NCBI GenBank assembly: GCA_050297015.1
Contig: JBNKRZ010000013.1
Location: forward strand, 3,676-67,675
Length of the DNA: 64,000 bases
Origin: Alphaproteobacteria bacterium
Lineage (GTDB): Bacteria; Pseudomonadota; Alphaproteobacteria; Micavibrionales; Micavibrionaceae
Direction: 5' to 3'
Part shown: piece by piece, positions 57,791 through 64,000 of the stretch
Position numbering within the stretch: position 1 is the first letter of the stretch
Layout: each line of letters starts with the position of its first letter
The notes under the pieces: model-generated
Database searches by the model: none
What the model was told of the DNA's origin: nothing
The model's input: the letters and a program-made list of their open reading frames with translations, nothing else
Translations under genes and position numbers: made by a program

Positions 57791-59532
57791 TGAGATATTC
57801 ATTTTCTTTTGCGCAGAAAGCTATGAAGATGATTGGCGCCCGGCGTTCGGCGCTTGATATGGCGCATGGGCGCCTTGTTTTGGTAAGCGCATTTTTTGCG
57901 TTGCTGTTTATGATGGTAGGGGCGCGGGCCTTTGACCTTTCTTTGATTCAGGGGGAGTGGCTTTCTTCCTCGCTCTCCGGGAACGGTCATGCGCGTTCTG
58001 ATGTTGTTTTGGCTGCGCCGCCGCGGGGTGATATTCTCGATCGTAATGGTGTGCTGCTGGCTACATCTTTGGAGACCCCCTCTTTATATGCCGATCCCTC
58101 TTTGGTTTTGGAACCGGAAAAGGTTGCGCGGGCGTTGGTTGATGTTTTGCCCTCTTTGTCTTATGGCACCGTTTTGCAAAAGCTTCAGCGTAAGGGGCGC
58201 TTTGTCTGGATTGCCCGAAATCTGACTCCGAATGAGCAATATGAGGTTTTGAAAATCGGTTCGCCGGGACTGGATTTTAAAACCGAATACCGCCGTATCT
58301 ATCCACAGGGGGGAATGGCGCCGCACATGATCGGTTACACCGATGTGGACGGGCATGGCCTGGCGGGGATAGAGCGCAGCTTTGATAAATTGCTGAATGC
58401 AGGAGAGGCGCCCTTGACATTGGCGCTGGATATGAGACTCCAGCATATCTTGCGGCGCGAAGTGCGCAAGGCGGCACAAACCTTTACCGGTGAAGGGGGC
58501 GCGGGGCTGATTATGGATGTCAGCAACGGTGAGATTCTTGCGGCTTATTCATGGCCGGACTTTGATCCTCACAATCCTGGCGCGGCGAAGGACAGGGCGC
58601 TTTTTAACCGCTTGACTTTGGGTGTTTATGAACTGGGTTCAACCTTTAAGATCTTTTCAACGGCGGCCTTGCTGGAAACGAAAAAGGTTGCGTTGTCTCA
58701 TGGTTTTGATGCGCGTAAACCTTTGAAGCGCGGGCGTTATACGATTACCGATTATCACCCGGAAAAACGTATTTTAACGGTGCCGGAAGTCTTTATGTAT
58801 TCCTCCAATATCGGTTCGGCTTTGATGGGGGAAATGGTTGGCAGTACGGCGCTTCAGGATTTTTACCGCGATTTGGGTTTGTTAACGCCTGTGGCTTTGG
58901 AAATCAATGAGGTTGGACGACCTCTGGTGCCGGAGCCATGGCGGGATATTAATACTCTGACGGCTTCTTATGGGCATGGGCTGGCGGTTACACCTTTGCA
59001 AATGGTTGCGGCGGCCAGTTCTATTGTCGGGGGCGGAACGGTCATTCGTCCGAGGCTGGTTCTGGATCATGAGAAAGATAACGCGCGCGTGCAAACCGAT
59101 GTGCGGGTTGTCTCTCCGCAGACAGCGCATCGCATGCGTCAGCTAATGCGGCTAGTGGTGACAGACGGTACGGGAAAGATGGCCGATGTGCCGGGCTACC
59201 GCGTCGGCGGTAAGACGGGTACGGCCGAAAAGCCGGGGCCGGGTGGTTATAGCCACAAGCGTTTAATCTCGTCCTTTATGGGCTTTTTTCCGATGGAAGA
59301 GCCGCGCTACGCCGTCTTTATCATGGTTGATGAGCCGCACGGCACAAAAGAAAGCTTTGGTTACGCCACGGCGGGTTGGGTGGCGGCTCCGGCTGTGGGG
59401 CGGGTAATTGCCGCGATGGGAGCTTTGTTGGGTGTGCATCCGGAGGAAGATACCAACGGGATGCACGATGTGCTGGCCGCTTCGTTGAAACAATATGTTC
59501 ATGACAGGAGTAAACATCATGATTTTGAGTGA
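57787..59532 (+). CDS. ftsI: Peptidoglycan D,D-transpeptidase FtsI (PBP3)
   Basis: 581 aa with active-site motifs GSTFK (ELGSTFKIF), SSN (YSSNIG) and KTG (GGKTGTAEK). Confidence 0.9.
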   Translation: MMRYSFSFAQKAMKMIGARRSALDMAHGRLVLVSAFFALLFMMVGARAFDLSLIQGEWLSSSLSGNGHARSDVVLAAPPRGDILDRNGVLLATSLETPSLYADPSLVLEPEKVARALVDVLPSLSYGTVLQKLQRKGRFVWIARNLTPNEQYEVLKIGSPGLDFKTEYRRIYPQGGMAPHMIGYTDVDGHGLAGIERSFDKLLNAGEAPLTLALDMRLQHILRREVRKAAQTFTGEGGAGLIMDVSNGEILAAYSWPDFDPHNPGAAKDRALFNRLTLGVYELGSTFKIFSTAALLETKKVALSHGFDARKPLKRGRYTITDYHPEKRILTVPEVFMYSSNIGSALMGEMVGSTALQDFYRDLGLLTPVALEINEVGRPLVPEPWRDINTLTASYGHGLAVTPLQMVAAASSIVGGGTVIRPRLVLDHEKDNARVQTDVRVVSPQTAHRMRQLMRLVVTDGTGKMADVPGYRVGGKTGTAEKPGPGGYSHKRLISSFMGFFPMEEPRYAVFIMVDEPHGTKESFGYATAGWVAAPAVGRVIAAMGALLGVHPEEDTNGMHDVLAASLKQYVHDRSKHHDFE

Positions 59533-60970
59533 GTTGAGTCCTGAAAAAAACGCAGGGCAAGAAATTGAGATTAAAGGGATAACGCAGGATAGTCGGGCGG
59601 TGCGCTCTGGATGGCTGTTTGCGGCTCTGCCGGGCCGAAAATATGACGGCCGCGATTTTATAGGCGATGCTGTGCGTAATGGTGCGGTTGCTGTGCTAGC
59701 GCCCACAGGGGCGATGTTGCCGGACGATGCGGCGGCGGGTGGTGTGGTTTTGATAACGGATGATGATCCGCGCCGTTTGCTTTCTCTGATGGCTGCGCGG
59801 TTTTATGGGGCGCAGCCGGAGCAAATTTCCGCGGTGACGGGCACGAATGGCAAGACCTCCGTTGTGCATTTCACCCAACAGCTTTGCCAAATGGTCGGAA
59901 AGACGAGCGCGTCGTTGGGTACTTTGGGGGTGCGCGGCGCGGGGATGACACGGCCCGGCGCTCTGACAACACCGGAGCCGGTAGCGCTTCACGCGATGAT
60001 CGCCGATCTCGCCGCGGCGGGGGTGACAAATTTAGCGATGGAGGCTTCCAGCATCGGGATTGAACAACGCCGTCTTGACGGGGTGCGGGTGACGGCTGCG
60101 GCTTTCACAAATTTAAGCCGCGACCACCTTGATTATCATGAAACGATGGAGGCTTATTTTGCCGCCAAGGCCCGGCTGTTTGATGCGATTTTGGTTGATG
60201 ATGGTGCGGCTGTTCTGAATGCGGATGTGACGGAATACGACGCTTTGCACGAAATTGTAACGGCGCGGGGTTTGAAAGAAATCTCCTACGGTTATCAAGC
60301 ATCGGAGTTGAAGCTGTTAAAGGCTGCGCCATGTCCGGACGGGCAGGATGTTGAATTGGAAATCGCCGGGGAGACTTACAGCGTGTTCTTGCCGCTTGTC
60401 GGTGAATTTCAGGTTATGAATGTACTGTGCGCGCTGGGGCTGGCCTCTGTTTTATGTAGCCTTCCGGCGGCGGAGTTTGTGCCGCTTTTGCCGGACTTGA
60501 AACGGGCGCCGGGGCGGTTGGCGCTCATACCCGGTCACCCGAAGGGCGCGGTTTATGTCGATTATGCTCATACGCCCGATGCGCTGGAGATGATTTTGAA
60601 AACGTTGCGTCCTCACACAAAAGGAAAACTTTTTTGCCTGATTGGCTGTGGCGGTGATCGTGACCGGGGCAAGCGTCCGGTTATGGGGAAAATAGCGGCG
60701 GACTTTGCCGATGTAGCGATTATTACCGACGATAATCCGCGCGGCGAAGATCCCGCGGCTATCCGTGCTGCGATGATGGAAGGTGCCGGGGAAAAGGCTA
60801 AGGAAATCGGCGACCGCCGCGAAGCGATCCGTTGGGCGGTTGATGCATTGCAAGAGGGTGATGTGCTGGTGTTGGCCGGCAAGGGGCACGAACAAGGACA
60901 GATTATCGGCGACCGTGTGGAGCCGTTCGATGATGGGGAAGAAGCAAGCAAAGCAATGGGGGAATTGTAA
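59519..60970 (+). CDS. murE: UDP-N-acetylmuramoyl-L-alanyl-D-glutamate--2,6-diaminopimelate ligase
   Basis: P-loop AVTGTNGKTS and DAP-specific TDDNPRGEDP motif. The ORF track start is 59495; I prefer ATG 59519 (MILSEL...). Confidence 0.9.
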   Translation: MILSELSPEKNAGQEIEIKGITQDSRAVRSGWLFAALPGRKYDGRDFIGDAVRNGAVAVLAPTGAMLPDDAAAGGVVLITDDDPRRLLSLMAARFYGAQPEQISAVTGTNGKTSVVHFTQQLCQMVGKTSASLGTLGVRGAGMTRPGALTTPEPVALHAMIADLAAAGVTNLAMEASSIGIEQRRLDGVRVTAAAFTNLSRDHLDYHETMEAYFAAKARLFDAILVDDGAAVLNADVTEYDALHEIVTARGLKEISYGYQASELKLLKAAPCPDGQDVELEIAGETYSVFLPLVGEFQVMNVLCALGLASVLCSLPAAEFVPLLPDLKRAPGRLALIPGHPKGAVYVDYAHTPDALEMILKTLRPHTKGKLFCLIGCGGDRDRGKRPVMGKIAADFADVAIITDDNPRGEDPAAIRAAMMEGAGEKAKEIGDRREAIRWAVDALQEGDVLVLAGKGHEQGQIIGDRVEPFDDGEEASKAMGEL

Positions 60971-60973
60971 GCT

Positions 60974-62077
60974 ATGACGTTATGGTCTTCGAAAGAGGCG
61001 GAAGCCGCCGTTAAAGGGGTGTCGACACAAAGTTGGTGCGCGCATGGAATTGCCGTGATTCCGGCTGAAGTTCAGCCCGGCGATTTATTTGTTCCGGTGA
61101 GCAATGCCGCACAGGATGGCGTGAAGGAAGCTTTTGAGCGCGGCGCTGTGGCGGCTGTTGTCAATATTTGGCCGGAAGGGATGGAGCAAACACATCCGCT
61201 TTTGATCGTTGACGATCCGCTGGCCGCGCTTCATCGTTTGGCTGAAGCGGCTCTTAAACGTTGTGGTGCTAAGCGCATTGTGCTGGATAGTTGCCGGGCC
61301 TGTGCGGGATTCCCGGAGATGGTCGAAACGGCGCTTTCTGCTATTGCTGATGTTCATGTCGTATCGACGAATGACGGTTTGATGCGTGATTTGGCGGCGC
61401 TTCATGCCGGGGCAGATTACATCCTGTTTGCCAAGGAGGCGTCATCAATGCTCGAAATTGAAGCCGATATGGTGATGGTGGAGCCTGCGGATACAGAAGA
61501 TCTTGCTGCGGTGGAATTACAGGTCTATATGGAGGCGGCAAACGGCACGCGTCTGCGGGCTGCGATCGGTGGTGAGGAAATTGCTCTTACAGTACCGCAA
61601 CCGGGACGAGCTGTGGCTATGCAGGCTTTGGCAGCGCTGGTTGTCGTTGAGCGCTGTGGCGGCGATTTATCGAAAGCGGCCCGCGCGTTGGAAAATACGC
61701 GGCAGCTTGCCGGGCGAAGAGATGATGAGGCAAGCAATGTAACATTAATGGAGGATACTTTTAATGTATCTTGCGCGCTGAAAAATCAGGCGTTTAAGGT
61801 GTTGGCCTTGGTTGATCCGGGCCGCGGTCGCAAACGGATTGCGATTCTGAGCCATATGCAAAGCCAGCCGCAACAGGATTGGCGTTTGCCCGCTCAGACA
61901 GGCGATGTGCAGCTGATTTACACGCGGGCATCGTTGCCGGGGCATGAAACAACCCACATGGGATTGCAACAAATTGTACCCGACGTGCTGGCTCCCGGTG
62001 ACGTTCTTATGCTAAAAGGGGCCAATGAACCGGGCCGCGGCGTTGTTGTTGAAGCGCTCCGTACCCCGCAAGGATAA
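60974..62077 (+). CDS. MurF homologue with degenerate catalytic motifs (shortened, P-loop lost); possible pseudoenzyme
   Basis: 367 aa in the murF slot. The N-terminal domain is MurF-like (VQPGDLFVPV...ERGAVAAVV...LLIVDDPLAALHRLA). Where MurF has TGSxGKT(S/T), this ORF reads LDSCRACAGF. The DxxYNAN block reads MEDTFNVS. Confidence 0.7.
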   Translation: MTLWSSKEAEAAVKGVSTQSWCAHGIAVIPAEVQPGDLFVPVSNAAQDGVKEAFERGAVAAVVNIWPEGMEQTHPLLIVDDPLAALHRLAEAALKRCGAKRIVLDSCRACAGFPEMVETALSAIADVHVVSTNDGLMRDLAALHAGADYILFAKEASSMLEIEADMVMVEPADTEDLAAVELQVYMEAANGTRLRAAIGGEEIALTVPQPGRAVAMQALAALVVVERCGGDLSKAARALENTRQLAGRRDDEASNVTLMEDTFNVSCALKNQAFKVLALVDPGRGRKRIAILSHMQSQPQQDWRLPAQTGDVQLIYTRASLPGHETTHMGLQQIVPDVLAPGDVLMLKGANEPGRGVVVEALRTPQG

Positions 62078-62089
62078 ATATTAAGCCGC

Positions 62090-62170
62090 CATTGCGAGGA
62101 GGGTGATAACCCGCGCGGCAATCCAGAATTGTTCTTGTCGGCTCTGGATTGCTTCGCTACGCTCGCAATG
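62090..62170. repeat. REP-like compound palindrome
   Basis: Outer arms CATTGCGAG (62090-62098) / CTCGCAATG (62162-62170). Inner arms GCAATCCAGA (62118-62127) / TCTGGATTGC (62143-62152). Confidence 0.8.
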
Positions 62171-62188
62171 ACGATTGAAGGAAAAGTT

Positions 62189-62926
62189 ATGCGTGAAGAA
62201 AAATGGACGATCCCGACCGGTGACGGCCACCTGATTTACGGGGTGACGAACTACGCCTACCCCGATAAGCCGTCCGATAAATGTATCGTGATTGTTCATG
62301 GTTTGGGCGGGCATATGGATGTTTATATTCATGGCCGGGCCGCGCGTTCTTTTCCAAAGAAAGGATATGATGTTATCCGTTTCAACCTTTATACGTGGGA
62401 AGAAAAAGCGCGGCATCTACAGGATTGTACGCTTCAAATCCATGCGGCAGATTTCAACGCTGTTTTGAAAGAGCGGGCAAAAAATTATGCCAAAATTTTC
62501 GCTGTAGGGCATAGTTACGGCGGCGTTACAATTATGATAGCTCAGCCATCGGAAGTGGGGGCTGTTTCTTTATGGGATCCAACCTTTCATGCGCCGATTG
62601 CATGGGATGATGCTTTTATCAAAAGGCGGGAAGGGATGTTGTTTCGTAATGGCGGTGCAGAAACCTTGGCGTCAGAAGAGATGTACGAAGAAGCTTTCCA
62701 ATACAAAAAAGAGGAATGTCTGAGCTTATCGGAGAGACTCAATAAGCCGATACAGGTTATTACAGCTGGAGACGGTATTTTTGTAACCGAAGAGCAATCC
62801 TTCCACTCCGCCGGGCACTCTTTGAATGAGCGGAAAATTGTGGACGGCGCGGATCATTGCTTTAACAACGGCGATACGTGCGATACGCTGCTCGAATATA
62901 CGTATGAATGGTTTGAAAGGTTTTAA
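62189..62926 (+). CDS. Alpha/beta hydrolase
   Basis: Oxyanion region VIVHGLGGH and nucleophile elbow GHSYGG. The ORF track start at 62129 runs through the palindrome; I prefer ATG 62189, preceded by GAAGGA. Confidence 0.75.
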   Translation: MREEKWTIPTGDGHLIYGVTNYAYPDKPSDKCIVIVHGLGGHMDVYIHGRAARSFPKKGYDVIRFNLYTWEEKARHLQDCTLQIHAADFNAVLKERAKNYAKIFAVGHSYGGVTIMIAQPSEVGAVSLWDPTFHAPIAWDDAFIKRREGMLFRNGGAETLASEEMYEEAFQYKKEECLSLSERLNKPIQVITAGDGIFVTEEQSFHSAGHSLNERKIVDGADHCFNNGDTCDTLLEYTYEWFERF

Positions 62927-64000
62927 ATGCTCTATAACCTGCTCGCGCCGTTGGGCGATGACATTATCTTTTTTAACTTGTTTCGCTACCTGACGTTCCG
63001 GGGCGGGGCGGCTGTGATGACGGCGCTTATTATCAGCTTTCTGATCGGCCCGGCGATGATCCGTTGGCTGAAGAGCTTGCAAGCCGGGGCCAGTAATGTG
63101 CGTGAATTTCTCGAAGACGCGCACGGCCATAAATCCGGAACGCCGAGTATGGGCGGACTGATGATCCTGATTTCCGTTACGATATCGACGCTGCTCTGGT
63201 CGGACCTGACGAATCCGCTGGTATGGTACGTGGTTTTGGTCATGGTCGGGTATGGCGCGCTGGGGTTTGCTGACGATTACCTGAAGATAACAAAGAAGAA
63301 TTCCAAAGGCTTGCCGGGGAAAGTTAAACTTCTGGGACAGTTTTTGATCGGCGCTGTGGCGACTGTCGGGATTACGGGCGCGCTACCGGACTCGTTAAGC
63401 ACGGCCGTTGCGATCCCGTTTTTCAAAGATTTGTTTATCAATCTTGGTTGGTTTTTCATTCCGTGGGCGCTTCTGGTCATGGTCGGGGCGAGCAATGCCG
63501 TGAATTTGACAGACGGTCTTGACGGCCTGGCGATTGTGCCTGTCGCGATTGCCGCGGCCTGTTTCGGCCTCATTGCTTATCTTGCAGGGCACGTGGTTTA
63601 TGCGGGCTACCTTCATATCCCTTACGTTCCCGGCAGCGGTGAATTGGCGATTTTATGTGGCGCGCTGGTCGGCGGCGCGATGGGGTTCCTGTGGTTTAAT
63701 GCCCCGCCCGCGATGGTTTTTATGGGCGATACGGGATCGCTGGCCATGGGCGGGGTGCTCGGCGCGATTGCCGTGGCGACCAAGCATGAAATCGTGCTGG
63801 CCATTATCGGCGGGCTGTTCGTGATGGAGACGGTCTCCGTGATCGTACAGGTTGCCTCGTTTAAGTTGACCGGCAAGCGCGTGTTTGCGATGGCGCCCGT
63901 TCACCACCATTTTGAGAAAAAAGGCTGGTCCGAGCCGCAGATCGTGATACGCTTTTGGATTATAGCTGTAATTTTGGCGCTTGTAGGATTGGCAACATTG
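62927..64000 (+). CDS. mraY: Phospho-N-acetylmuramoyl-pentapeptide transferase (runs off the window end)
   Basis: Absent from the ORF track because it is truncated. Hand translation gives [27 protein letters not shown]...[14 protein letters not shown]...[11 protein letters not shown]...[15 protein letters not shown]. Confidence 0.9.

What the first reader, a model, noticed from the sequence alone, without database searches (positions are those of the whole stretch)
60974..62077. MurF homologue in the dcw cluster has lost its ATP-binding P-loop and about 85 residues but remains an open frame
Seen in sequence: the ORF occupies the canonical murF slot after murE and aligns by eye with MurF end to end.
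- N-domain: PGDLFVPV..., LLIVDDPLAALHRLA
- Central region: LTVPQPGRAVAMQALAAL, against the MurF block LPLPGRHNIANALAA
- C-terminus: VLMLKGANE...VVEAL

Where Mur ligases have the essential TGSxGKT(S/T) loop, this ORF reads LDSCRACAGF (about 61280-61310). The DxSYNAN block reads EDTFNVS, and the protein is 367 aa against roughly 450 aa for typical MurF (established knowledge).

The neighbours MurE (AVTGTNGKTS, DNPR), FtsI (STFK/SSN/KTG) and MraY look intact.

Inference: there are three possibilities. It may be a pseudoenzyme retained for a structural or regulatory role. It may be a recently inactivated gene with a functional murF elsewhere. Or it may point to an altered peptidoglycan precursor pathway, which would be interesting for a possibly host-associated bacterium.
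Basis: partly seen in the sequence, partly recalled or inferred. Interest (0 to 1): 0.6.

Follow-up and report, generated by a model that had tools for sequence, protein, structure and literature searches.

The report
Dead MurF relic kept under selection
The gene in the usual murF position of this bacterium's cell-wall cluster is a catalytically dead but evolutionarily conserved remnant of MurF, while the real MurF job is done by a horizontally acquired, membrane-anchored MurF cassette elsewhere in the genome.

Summary
ORF 60974-62077 (367 aa) sits between murE and mraY and is a true MurF homologue. It has lost the P-loop (GSVGKT becomes DSCRAC), the Mg-Glu, the TNxxxH and carbamyl-Lys block (about 75 aa deleted), DxSYNASP and GDMxELG.

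It is neither an assembly error nor a fresh pseudogene. Five species carry the same architecture, and it is under purifying selection (pN 0.29-0.42 against saturated pS 0.59-0.77; 105 invariant residues).

No canonical murF or ddl was found in this 99%-complete assembly. Contig C22 instead carries a cassette: a Ddl-like ligase, a VanX-like dipeptidase, an EstV-like hydrolase and a MurF-type ligase with all catalytic motifs intact, whose N-domain is replaced by a polytopic membrane domain.

Across 61 relatives, this membrane MurF and canonical MurF are almost mutually exclusive. Only one genome has both. Cassette genomes hold slot relics of about 508, about 420, about 375 and about 150 aa, or nothing.

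Sister species keep the same relic beside a second canonical murF-ddl pair, so the relic most likely predates this genome's cassette.

Best reading: a displaced MurF kept as a non-catalytic protein, possibly a scaffold (inferred). The peptidoglycan pathway looks intact. Interest is moderate.

The parts
59495..60970 (+). murE, intact UDP-MurNAc-dipeptide:meso-DAP ligase, immediately upstream of the relic
   Evidence: NF001124 601.5 bits (cut-off 476). All three Mur_ligase Pfam domains detected.
60974..62077 (+). psMurF: catalytically dead MurF relic, 367 aa, in the canonical murF slot
   Evidence: - Scores 81 bits against PRK14093 and 70 bits against TIGR01143, both far below cut-off.
- Best Foldseek matches are MurF structures, E about 1e-15.
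- Orthologues are 45-58% identical in four other species.
60974..61267 (+). N-terminal domain of the relic (about residues 1-98), the best conserved part
   Evidence: - pLDDT is mostly above 90.
- Raw pN/pS is 0.40.
- 18 of 31 canonical-conserved columns are kept. The S-I-D-x-R-T and D-G-H positions, conserved in at least 90% of 50 canonical MurFs, are lost.
61283..61312 (+). Degenerate P-loop, LDSCRACAGF, in place of (V)TGSVGKTGT
   Evidence: Alignments; coordinates. All five relic orthologues lack G-K-T/S.
61268..61708 (+). Reduced central domain (about residues 99-245) with a deletion of about 75 aa near residues 165-177
   Evidence: - Only 11 of 66 canonical-conserved columns are kept; the TTxxxH, AKAEI and LNxD blocks are absent.
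- It is still modelled confidently as a small alpha/beta domain plus beta-sheet.
61709..62074 (+). C-terminal domain remnant. EDTFNVSC lies at 61751-61774, SHMQSQ at 61850-61867 and IVPDVLAPGDV at 61973-62005.
   Evidence: - 17 of 48 canonical-conserved columns are kept.
- Relic-specific invariant Cys267, Ser293 and His294 replace Pro, Gly and Asp of the canonical motifs.
- The AlphaFold model is of low confidence here.
62189..62926 (+). Inserted alpha/beta-hydrolase gene (ABH_dcw, about 245 aa, G+C 0.45-0.48) between the relic and mraY. It is context, not part of the relic.
   Evidence: - Pfam Abhydrolase_1 match; low G+C.
- Present in G001, G002 and P0003 but not in P0005.
- Unrelated to the cassette hydrolase.
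62927..64000 (+). mraY (runs off the window), intact
   Evidence: 94% identical to the G002 MraY over 361 aa.

Best explanation
**Origin (shown).** ORF 60974-62077 descends from the vertically inherited murF that sits between murE and mraY in this family of Micavibrio-like Alphaproteobacteria. The label comes from the record titles of related loci.

**Loss of activity (shown).** It lost every motif needed for ATP binding and ligation after another gene took over the MurF function.

**What displaced it.**
- In the two sister species, the working enzyme is a second, canonical murF placed directly upstream of ddl, between an aldo-keto-reductase-like gene and ftsQ.
- In this genome that murF-ddl pair is missing. 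An aldo-keto-reductase-like gene abuts ftsQ on contig C31.
- The D-Ala-D-Ala branch here is supplied by a separately acquired cassette on contig C22. It holds a Ddl-family ligase, a VanX/DdpX-like dipeptidase, an EstV-like alpha/beta hydrolase and a MurF-type ligase. That ligase has intact catalytic motifs, but its UDP-binding N-domain is replaced by four to five membrane helices.

**Retention (shown).** The relic is not decaying neutrally. It is translated in frame behind murE and has been kept under purifying selection across at least five species.

**Function (inferred).**
- It persists as a non-catalytic protein.
- The most likely role is structural, as a docking piece in the transient Mur-ligase/MraY assembly. 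Its best conserved part is the N-terminal region, which in real MurF contacts the C-terminus of MurE.
- This specific scaffold role carries roughly one-in-three odds.
For: **Homology and dead motifs.**

**No other canonical murF found in the assembly.**
- No hit exceeds the TIGR01143 cut-off in a 98.98%-complete genome.
- The only other strong hit is C22:60989-62584 (197 bits). Its motifs are intact: GITGSFGKTS, EMGA, AIGAAHYERY, AKFEL, HHGQN, DDAFNSNP and ELGD. It aligns to A. baumannii MurF 4ziy.
- That protein has four to five N-terminal hydrophobic helices.

**Displacement across 61 relatives.**
- 21 genomes have the membrane MurF and 38 have a canonical MurF. One has both. Three, all incomplete, have neither.
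- Every cassette genome also carries a divergent Ddl adjacent to the cassette. All but two of them lack a canonical ddl.

**Slot relics in cassette genomes.** They come in five states: about 508 aa, 414-430 aa, 375 aa, 149-160 aa, or absent.

**Sister species.**
- G002 has the relic plus murF2 (381 bits) and ddl before ftsQ.
- G001 has the relic plus the tail of a murF followed by a ddl that is 81% identical to the G002 ddl.
- G000 lacks that pair at the syntenic site.

**Separate acquisition of the cassette.** The G000 membrane MurF groups with a Hyphomicrobiaceae, Dichotomicrobium and Bdellovibrionales clade (98*), not with the clade of its family relatives (99*).

**Selection on the relic.**
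- pN is 0.29-0.42 against pS 0.59-0.77, only about 1.4-1.6 times the pN of MurE and FtsI.
- All three domains are constrained and 105 of 367 residues are invariant.
- The relic clade is monophyletic (100*) inside the family's canonical MurFs.

**Basis for the scaffold idea.**
- The MurE C-terminus docks on the MurF N-terminal hydrophobic patch.
- The first two MurF domains mediate binding of MurC and MurD (PMC10214165).
- The model also matches the MurE-MurF chimera 8f5d and the non-catalytic plastid MurE-like PAP11.
Against: **No direct evidence of expression or interaction.**
- There are no expression or protein data.
- No interaction could be computed.

**Limits of the selection estimate.** Synonymous sites are saturated, so omega is only bounded (below about 0.4-0.6 raw), not measured.

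**Signs that relics are dispensable or heterogeneous.**
- The relic is lost outright in G029, G040, G046 and G057, so such relics can be dispensable.
- Other lineages keep only the C-terminal domain as 150-aa stubs. No single retained surface is common to all relic classes.
- The C-terminal domain of this relic is modelled with low confidence.

**Residual uncertainty about gene content and history.**
- The genome is a 45-contig assembly, so a canonical murF hidden in a gap cannot be formally excluded.
- The order of events (murF2 first, cassette later) rests on parsimony over three genomes and on a quick tree.
Confidence: 0.72

Rival explanations
1. Slowly decaying pseudogene. On this view the frame stays open only because the dcw operon needs continuous translation between murE and downstream genes (polarity, translational coupling). 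The protein itself would have no function.
For: - The slot shows a size series ending in complete loss.
- Most relics overlap the mraY start by 11 nt.
- pN is higher than in MurE and FtsI.
Against: - Amino-acid sequence, not just frame, is conserved. pN is far below pS in all three domains, and 105 residues are invariant across species whose MurE proteins are 55-70% identical.
- Relic-specific invariant substitutions exist: A32, A98, L102, C349 and S375-H376 in P0007 numbering.
- In this genus the relic no longer abuts mraY, because a hydrolase gene is inserted between them. It is conserved all the same.
Confidence: 0.13
2. Ligand-binding regulator. The relic would still bind UDP-MurNAc-peptide or D-Ala-D-Ala without ligating. 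It would tune MurE, the neighbouring hydrolase or the membrane MurF, much as the MurF' domain modulates alanine racemase in Bacteroidota.
For: - The N and C domains are the better conserved parts.
- A published precedent exists: a MurF-like domain acts as a modulator (PMC13726279).
- Conserved Cys267 and His294 replace two substrate-site residues.
Against: - In the N-domain, the S-I-D-x-R-T and D-G-H positions conserved in at least 90% of canonical MurFs are not kept in the relics. The DxSYNASP, GDMxELG and RGxRE motifs are also lost.
- No binding could be tested.
Confidence: 0.1
3. Still an active ligase that uses an unconventional nucleotide site, so the genome would have two MurF activities.
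For: The fold and the gene position are those of MurF.
Against: - The P-loop Lys/Thr, the Mg-Glu, the His motif, the carbamylated Lys and the whole strand block are all absent.
- Scores lie far below family cut-offs.
Confidence: 0.02
4. Sequencing or assembly artefact, such as frameshifts or a chimeric contig.
For: None found.
Against: - The same architecture and the same indels occur in five species and at least eight independent contigs.
- G+C and skew are continuous with the neighbouring genes.
Confidence: 0.01

Closest known systems
Canonical MurF (UDP-MurNAc-tripeptide:D-Ala-D-Ala ligase; TIGR01143, PRK14093; PDB 4cvm, 4qf5, 1gg4)
   Same: - Common ancestry.
- The same slot between murE and mraY.
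- The same N-terminal domain fold, the end of the central domain and parts of the C-domain.
   Different: - All ATP, Mg and substrate motifs are lost.
- About 75 plus 14 residues are deleted.
- It scores 70-81 bits against cut-offs of 288-544.
- It is not a member in the functional sense.
PAP11 / plastid MurE-like protein (PDB 8r6s_Q, 8qma_O)
   Same: A Mur-ligase fold kept as a non-catalytic structural subunit. It is picked up by both the sequence search and the fold search.
   Different: - It derives from MurE in plants and is recruited to the plastid RNA polymerase.
- The relic here is bacterial, derives from MurF and still sits in the dcw cluster. Its partner is unknown.
MurF' domain of MurF'-Alr chimeras in Bacteroidota and Chloroflexota (PMC13726279)
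   Same: A MurF-derived module reported to act as a modulator rather than as the MurF ligase.
   Different: - It is fused to alanine racemase and coexists with a separate MurF.
- The relic here is free-standing and much more eroded.
Membrane-anchored MurF cassette (Ddl, EstV-like hydrolase and MurF with a membrane N-domain). Earlier scan notes equate it with the Helicobacter and Campylobacter type (HP0738-HP0740).
   Same: This is the system that supplies MurF function in the window's genome. It shows the same three-gene core as in 20 relatives and in many Hyphomicrobiaceae, Bdellovibrionales and Acidobacteriaceae genomes.
   Different: - It is not the finding itself but its replacement.
- The G000 copy carries an extra VanX/DdpX-like dipeptidase gene and lies away from the dcw cluster.
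- I did not verify the Helicobacter equivalence. I have only an EstV-family hit of 107 bits (cut-off 300) and a full-length match to H. pylori Ddl 2pvp.
MurE-MurF chimera and Mur-ligase complex (Bordetella pertussis, PDB 8f5d; PMC10214165)
   Same: It shows that the MurF N-terminal patch binds the MurE C-terminus, and that the first two MurF domains recruit MurC and MurD. These are the parts best preserved in the relic.
   Different: In that system both halves are active enzymes. A scaffold role for a dead MurF is my inference.

Membership tests
MurF ligase (TIGR01143 / PRK14093) | Profile score above the curated cut-off | tested here: not met
   70 bits against 288.6, and 81 bits against 544. 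No Pfam Mur_ligase_M or Mur_ligase_C hit.
MurF ligase (TIGR01143 / PRK14093) | ATP-binding P-loop GxxGK(T/S) | tested here: not met
   It reads DSCRACAG. All five orthologues lack the Lys-Thr/Ser pair.
MurF ligase (TIGR01143 / PRK14093) | Mg-binding Glu, TNxxxH block, carbamylated Lys, GxHNxxN | tested here: not met
   The Glu is replaced. About 75 residues holding the His and Lys blocks are deleted. GRHxxxN reads GRAVAMQ.
MurF ligase (TIGR01143 / PRK14093) | C-domain motifs DxSYNANP and GDMxELG | tested here: not met
   They read EDTFNVSC and SHMQSQP.
MurF ligase (TIGR01143 / PRK14093) | Three-domain Mur-ligase fold and descent from MurF | tested here: met
   - Best Foldseek hits are MurF structures, E about 1e-15.
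- The relic clade nests within the family's canonical MurFs.
- The C-domain model is of low confidence.
MurF ligase (TIGR01143 / PRK14093) | Position between murE and mraY in the dcw cluster | tested here: met
   In this genus one hydrolase gene is inserted before mraY.
MurF ligase (TIGR01143 / PRK14093) | D-Ala-D-Ala-adding activity | not testable with these tools
   This needs an enzyme assay or complementation of a murF(ts) laboratory strain.
Pseudoenzyme (dead homologue maintained by selection) | Catalytic residues lost while the fold and open frame are retained | tested here: met
Pseudoenzyme (dead homologue maintained by selection) | Purifying selection on the protein sequence | tested here: met
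   - pN is 0.29-0.42 against pS 0.59-0.77 over ten pairs.
- All three domains are constrained, and 105 residues are invariant.
- Omega is not precisely estimable because synonymous sites are saturated.
Pseudoenzyme (dead homologue maintained by selection) | A demonstrated non-catalytic function or partner | not testable with these tools
   There is no complex prediction and there are no expression data.
Unitary pseudogene | Frameshifts or stops, or neutral evolution | tested here: not met
   There are no stops in five species, and pN is far below pS.
Membrane-anchored MurF cassette (for the replacement gene on C22) | MurF catalytic motifs intact, N-domain replaced by membrane helices, adjacent alpha/beta hydrolase and Ddl-family gene | tested here: met
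Membrane-anchored MurF cassette (for the replacement gene on C22) | Stands in for canonical MurF (mutual exclusion in complete genomes) | tested here: met
   21 genomes have the cassette and 38 have a canonical MurF. One has both. Three, all incomplete, have neither.

The most novel reading that the evidence does not exclude
MurF has a second, ligase-independent structural job in the cytoplasmic and membrane peptidoglycan-precursor machinery. It would dock MurE, MurC and MurD through its first two domains, and MraY or MurG through its C-domain.

The dead slot copies would then be natural separation-of-function alleles that keep only that job. They arose at least three to four times after MurF catalysis moved to another gene, and they are still under purifying selection. 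That would explain why even 150-aa C-terminal stubs are conserved as proteins.
Probability: 0.3. Interest if true: 0.75.

Novelty: new variant of a known kind. Interest (0 to 1): 0.58.

Why it matters
**MurF as a target.** MurF is an essential, single-copy antibiotic target and is usually thought of only as an enzyme.

**What this case shows.**
- Its catalysis can be handed to a differently built, membrane-embedded paralogue or to a relocated copy.
- The emptied gene then tends to persist for long periods as a conserved, non-catalytic protein.

**If the relics have a structural role.** They would give direct, natural evidence for the long-proposed Mur-ligase complex. They would also point to which MurF surfaces matter for assembly.

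**Practical point for annotation.** Pipelines call these relics "hypothetical protein" and may report murF as missing. That can wrongly suggest an incomplete cell-wall pathway in Micavibrio-like predatory or host-associated bacteria.

Tried and rejected
**1. Split-enzyme idea.** I considered that the relic's N-domain might supply the UDP-binding domain that the membrane MurF lacks. I rejected it for three reasons:
- The same relic coexists with a complete canonical MurF2 in G002 and G001.
- Several cassette genomes keep only a C-terminal stub, or nothing, in the slot.
- The relic's own S-I-D-x-R-T and D-G-H positions are lost.

**2. A link between the two alpha/beta hydrolases.** The hydrolase beside the relic and the one in the cassette share only the nucleophile elbow.

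**3. Other Mur ligases as hidden MurF.**
- The C44 protein is a MurC-like (possibly Mpl-type) paralogue (299 bits to the murC model). Similar-scoring, similarly sized loci occur in relatives with either system, although I did not characterise those.
- The C23 hit is weak (22 bits).

**4. Searches that gave nothing.**
- Pfam and PHROGs gave nothing useful for the relic.
- Literature searches found no paper on a dead bacterial MurF, or on MurF in Micavibrio.

**5. Sources that were unavailable.**
- The paper by Blair et al. 2018 on H. pylori MurF is not held, so the Helicobacter link remains a lead.

**6. Precise dN/dS.** Synonymous sites are saturated (dS is not computable for several pairs). 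Only pN against pS is reported.
Full report
**1. What is in the window**

The ORF at 60974-62077 (+) encodes 367 aa. It starts 3 nt after the stop of an intact murE (59495-60970; 601 bits against NF001124, cut-off 476) and is preceded by a GGGGA ribosome-binding site. Downstream lie an inverted-repeat spacer, an alpha/beta-hydrolase gene of lower G+C (about 62189-62926) and mraY (62927 onwards). The cluster order upstream is mraZ, rsmH, ftsL, ftsI, murE. On the same contig, downstream, follow murD, ftsW, murG, murC and murB.

**2. It is a MurF homologue with every catalytic element gone**

- Pfam finds no Mur-ligase domain.
- NCBIfam gives only 81 bits against the alphaproteobacterial MurF model (cut-off 544) and 70 bits against TIGR01143 (cut-off 288.6).
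- An AlphaFold model has mean pLDDT 73. The N-domain and a shrunken central domain are confident; residues 246-367 are poor. Its best matches are MurF crystal structures 4cvm, 4qf5 and 1gg4 at E about 1e-15.

Alignment with 50 canonical relatives shows these changes:

| Canonical element | State in the relic |
|---|---|
| VTGSVGKTGTKEM (P-loop) | VLDSCRACAGFPEM |
| Mg-binding Glu | Replaced |
| TTxxxVH, the AKAEI lysine, LNxD | Deleted (about 75 residues) |
| GRHxxxN | GRAVAMQ |
| DESYNASP | EDTFNVSC |
| GDMxELG | SHMQSQP |
| C-domain | About 14 further residues missing |

Only 46 of 145 strongly conserved MurF columns survive: 18 of 31 in the N-domain, 11 of 66 in the middle domain and 17 of 48 in the C-domain. 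The shortfall against the nearest canonical proteins (470-490 aa) is about 105-115 aa rather than 85.

**3. Not an artefact and not a fresh pseudogene**

The same architecture, with the same indels, occurs in four other species:
- two of the same genus (G002 = P0002, 58% identity; G001 = P0004, 54%);
- two metagenomic species (P0003, 52%, on three contigs from three runs; P0005, 45%, on two contigs).

All sit directly after murE. In a MurF tree these five form one clade (support 100). It sits on a long stem inside the canonical slot MurFs of the family.

Pairwise codon comparison gives pN 0.29-0.42 against pS 0.59-0.77 (saturated). The same pairs give pN 0.19-0.32 for MurE and FtsI. All three domains are constrained, with raw pN/pS of 0.40, 0.57 and 0.46, and 105 residues are invariant. 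There are relic-specific invariant substitutions. For example, Cys replaces the Pro of NASP, and Ser-His replaces Gly-Asp of GDM. This is the signature of a protein maintained by selection, not of neutral decay.

**4. Where MurF activity comes from in this genome**

A whole-genome search (98.98% complete, 45 contigs) finds no murF above cut-off. The best remaining hit is on contig C22, at 60989-62584. It is a 531-aa protein with Mur_ligase_M and Mur_ligase_C domains and 197 bits against the murF model. Every catalytic motif is present: GITGSFGKTS, EMGA, AIGAAHYERY, AKFEL, HHGQN, DDAFNSNP and ELGD. It aligns to A. baumannii MurF 4ziy. Its first 165 or so residues replace the UDP-binding N-domain with four to five hydrophobic helices.

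Its neighbours on C22 are:
- an overlapping EstV-like alpha/beta hydrolase upstream;
- a VanX/DdpX-like M15 D-Ala-D-Ala dipeptidase;
- divergently, a Ddl-family ligase of 412 aa (225 bits, just under the 245.65 cut-off).

Alanine racemase is present. A further Mur ligase on C44 is a MurC-like (possibly Mpl-type) paralogue. Similar-scoring loci appear in relatives of both types, although I did not characterise them.

**5. Comparative evidence for displacement**

- Among 61 genomes of the same family and order, 21 have the membrane MurF (E below 1e-120) and 38 have a canonical MurF above cut-off.
- Only G031 has both. Its canonical copy is a very long branch at a contig end.
- The three genomes with neither are 84-90% complete.
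- Every cassette genome also has the divergent Ddl next to the hydrolase and membrane-MurF pair, usually wedged just after murB. All but two of them lack a canonical ddl.

The cassette therefore substitutes for both ddl and murF. The family is large, with at least 4,900 proteins at E of 1e-20 or lower. It occurs in Hyphomicrobiaceae, Micavibrio, Marivibrio, Labrys, Bdellovibrionales and Acidobacteriaceae. Earlier notes of this scan equate it with the Helicobacter and Campylobacter MurF, EstV and Ddl trio. I could only partly check that, through an EstV-family hit and a match to H. pylori Ddl 2pvp.

**6. The slot keeps relics of many sizes**

| Slot state between murE and mraY | Genomes |
|---|---|
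| About 508 aa, P-loop still GKS or GKT, 136-168 bits | G045, G039 |
| 414-430 aa, P-loop lost | G003, G004, G016, G018 |
| 375 aa | G027 |
| 149-160 aa stubs: about 20 N-terminal residues fused to the C-domain | G009, G011, G013, G017, G034 |
| Nothing | G029, G040, G046, G057 |

- The relic classes fall in separate places of the MurF tree. A further P-loop-less form (P0048 and P0049, about 445 aa, also in the slot) sits among canonical sequences.
- Inactivation therefore happened at least three or four times.
- All classes show pN well below pS. Stub pairs evolve about as slowly as MurE.
- A profile search of 1.84 billion representatives finds only two clusters of the window's relic type. 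Among the best 150 hits, however, 29 MurF-like proteins lack GxxGK[ST], and most of these are 400-450 aa.

**7. History in this genus**

- G002 carries the relic after murE and also a canonical murF (381 bits) fused in an operon with canonical ddl, just upstream of ftsQ, ftsA and ftsZ.
- G001 has the relic and, on a small contig, the tail of a canonical murF followed by a ddl 81% identical to that of G002.
- In the window's genome, the gene preceding that pair in G002 (an aldo-keto-reductase-like ORF) lies directly against ftsQ on C31. The murF-ddl pair is therefore cleanly absent.
- The window's membrane MurF groups with Hyphomicrobiaceae, Dichotomicrobium and Bdellovibrionales sequences (98). 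It does not group with the clade formed by its family relatives' cassettes (99).

The most parsimonious order is as follows. The slot murF became redundant and died after a second murF arose next to ddl. The G002 copy branches outside the family's clade, though with weak support. Later this lineage acquired the cassette horizontally and lost murF2-ddl. So the relic most likely predates the cassette here, and it coexists with either replacement.

**8. What the relic does (inference)**

It cannot bind ATP or ligate. It is translationally linked to murE and conserved across its length, most strongly in the N-domain.

[quoted passage not shown] A Mur-ligase fold kept purely as a structural subunit has precedent in plastid PAP11, and as a modulator in MurF'-Alr. 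I therefore favour a non-catalytic structural or scaffold role.

Rivals:
- an ORF kept only for operon translation, which is disfavoured by sequence-level constraint and by the loss of mraY adjacency in this genus;
- a ligand-sensing regulator, which is disfavoured by the loss of the S-I-D-x-R-T, D-G-H and DxSYNASP positions;
- residual catalysis, which is very unlikely;
- an artefact, which is excluded.

The complete loss of the slot gene in four relatives shows that such relics are not universally required.

**9. Verdict**

The cell-wall precursor pathway is complete but rewired. The thing itself is a new variant of a known kind, a Mur-ligase-derived pseudoenzyme. The searches run here found no paper describing it, although earlier agents of this scan noted it in a related genome.

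Noticed in passing
window 62078-62926: - An alpha/beta-hydrolase gene (GHSYGG nucleophile elbow, G+C 0.45-0.48 against 0.55 around it) and an inverted-repeat spacer (cattgcgag ... ctcgcaatg) are inserted between the relic and mraY.
- The insertion is conserved in G001, G002 and P0003 but absent in P0005.
- The hydrolase is unrelated to the cassette hydrolase.
   Followed up: partly
G000 contig C22:59420-60220 (L091:4420-5220): - A VanX/DdpX-like M15 D-Ala-D-Ala dipeptidase gene lies inside this genome's cassette, between the Ddl-like gene and the hydrolase.
- It is absent at that place in the 17 relatives' cassettes inspected.
- It could mean that the cassette controls, or changes, the dipeptide pool.
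   Followed up: partly
L061:15745-19213 (G002:C2) and L092 (G001:C268): Sister species carry a canonical murF directly fused in an operon with ddl upstream of ftsQ. This is an unusual position for murF. That copy branches outside the family's own MurF clade.
   Followed up: partly
L086:8752-11358, L087:10282-11475, L089:9504-11024 (family f5 genomes G040, G046, G057): In the family that has lost the murF slot gene entirely, the MurD homologue is very divergent (29-31% identity). In G040 it lies in an 868-aa ORF, possibly a fusion.
   Followed up: no
L066:8121-9647 and L067:4468-5991 (G045, G039): - Slot MurF homologues of about 508 aa keep a P-loop (GSVGKS, GVLGKT) and many motifs. They score only 136-168 bits and coexist with the membrane MurF.
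- They may be at an early stage of decay or may be ligases with a changed substrate.
   Followed up: no
G031:C6:578-1897 (L021): This is the only genome with both a membrane MurF and a canonical-scoring MurF. The canonical copy is a very long branch at a contig end, so contamination or recent transfer is possible.
   Followed up: no
G000 contig C44:1367-2755 (L003:1222-2610): A second MurC-like ligase (462 aa, 299.5 bits against a cut-off of 335). It is probably an Mpl-type recycling ligase. Similar-scoring loci appear in relatives but were not characterised.
   Followed up: partly
G000 contig C5:259525-260550: A second, divergent alanine-racemase-like gene (143 bits, below cut-off) exists besides the canonical alr at C5:208988-210040.
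   Followed up: no
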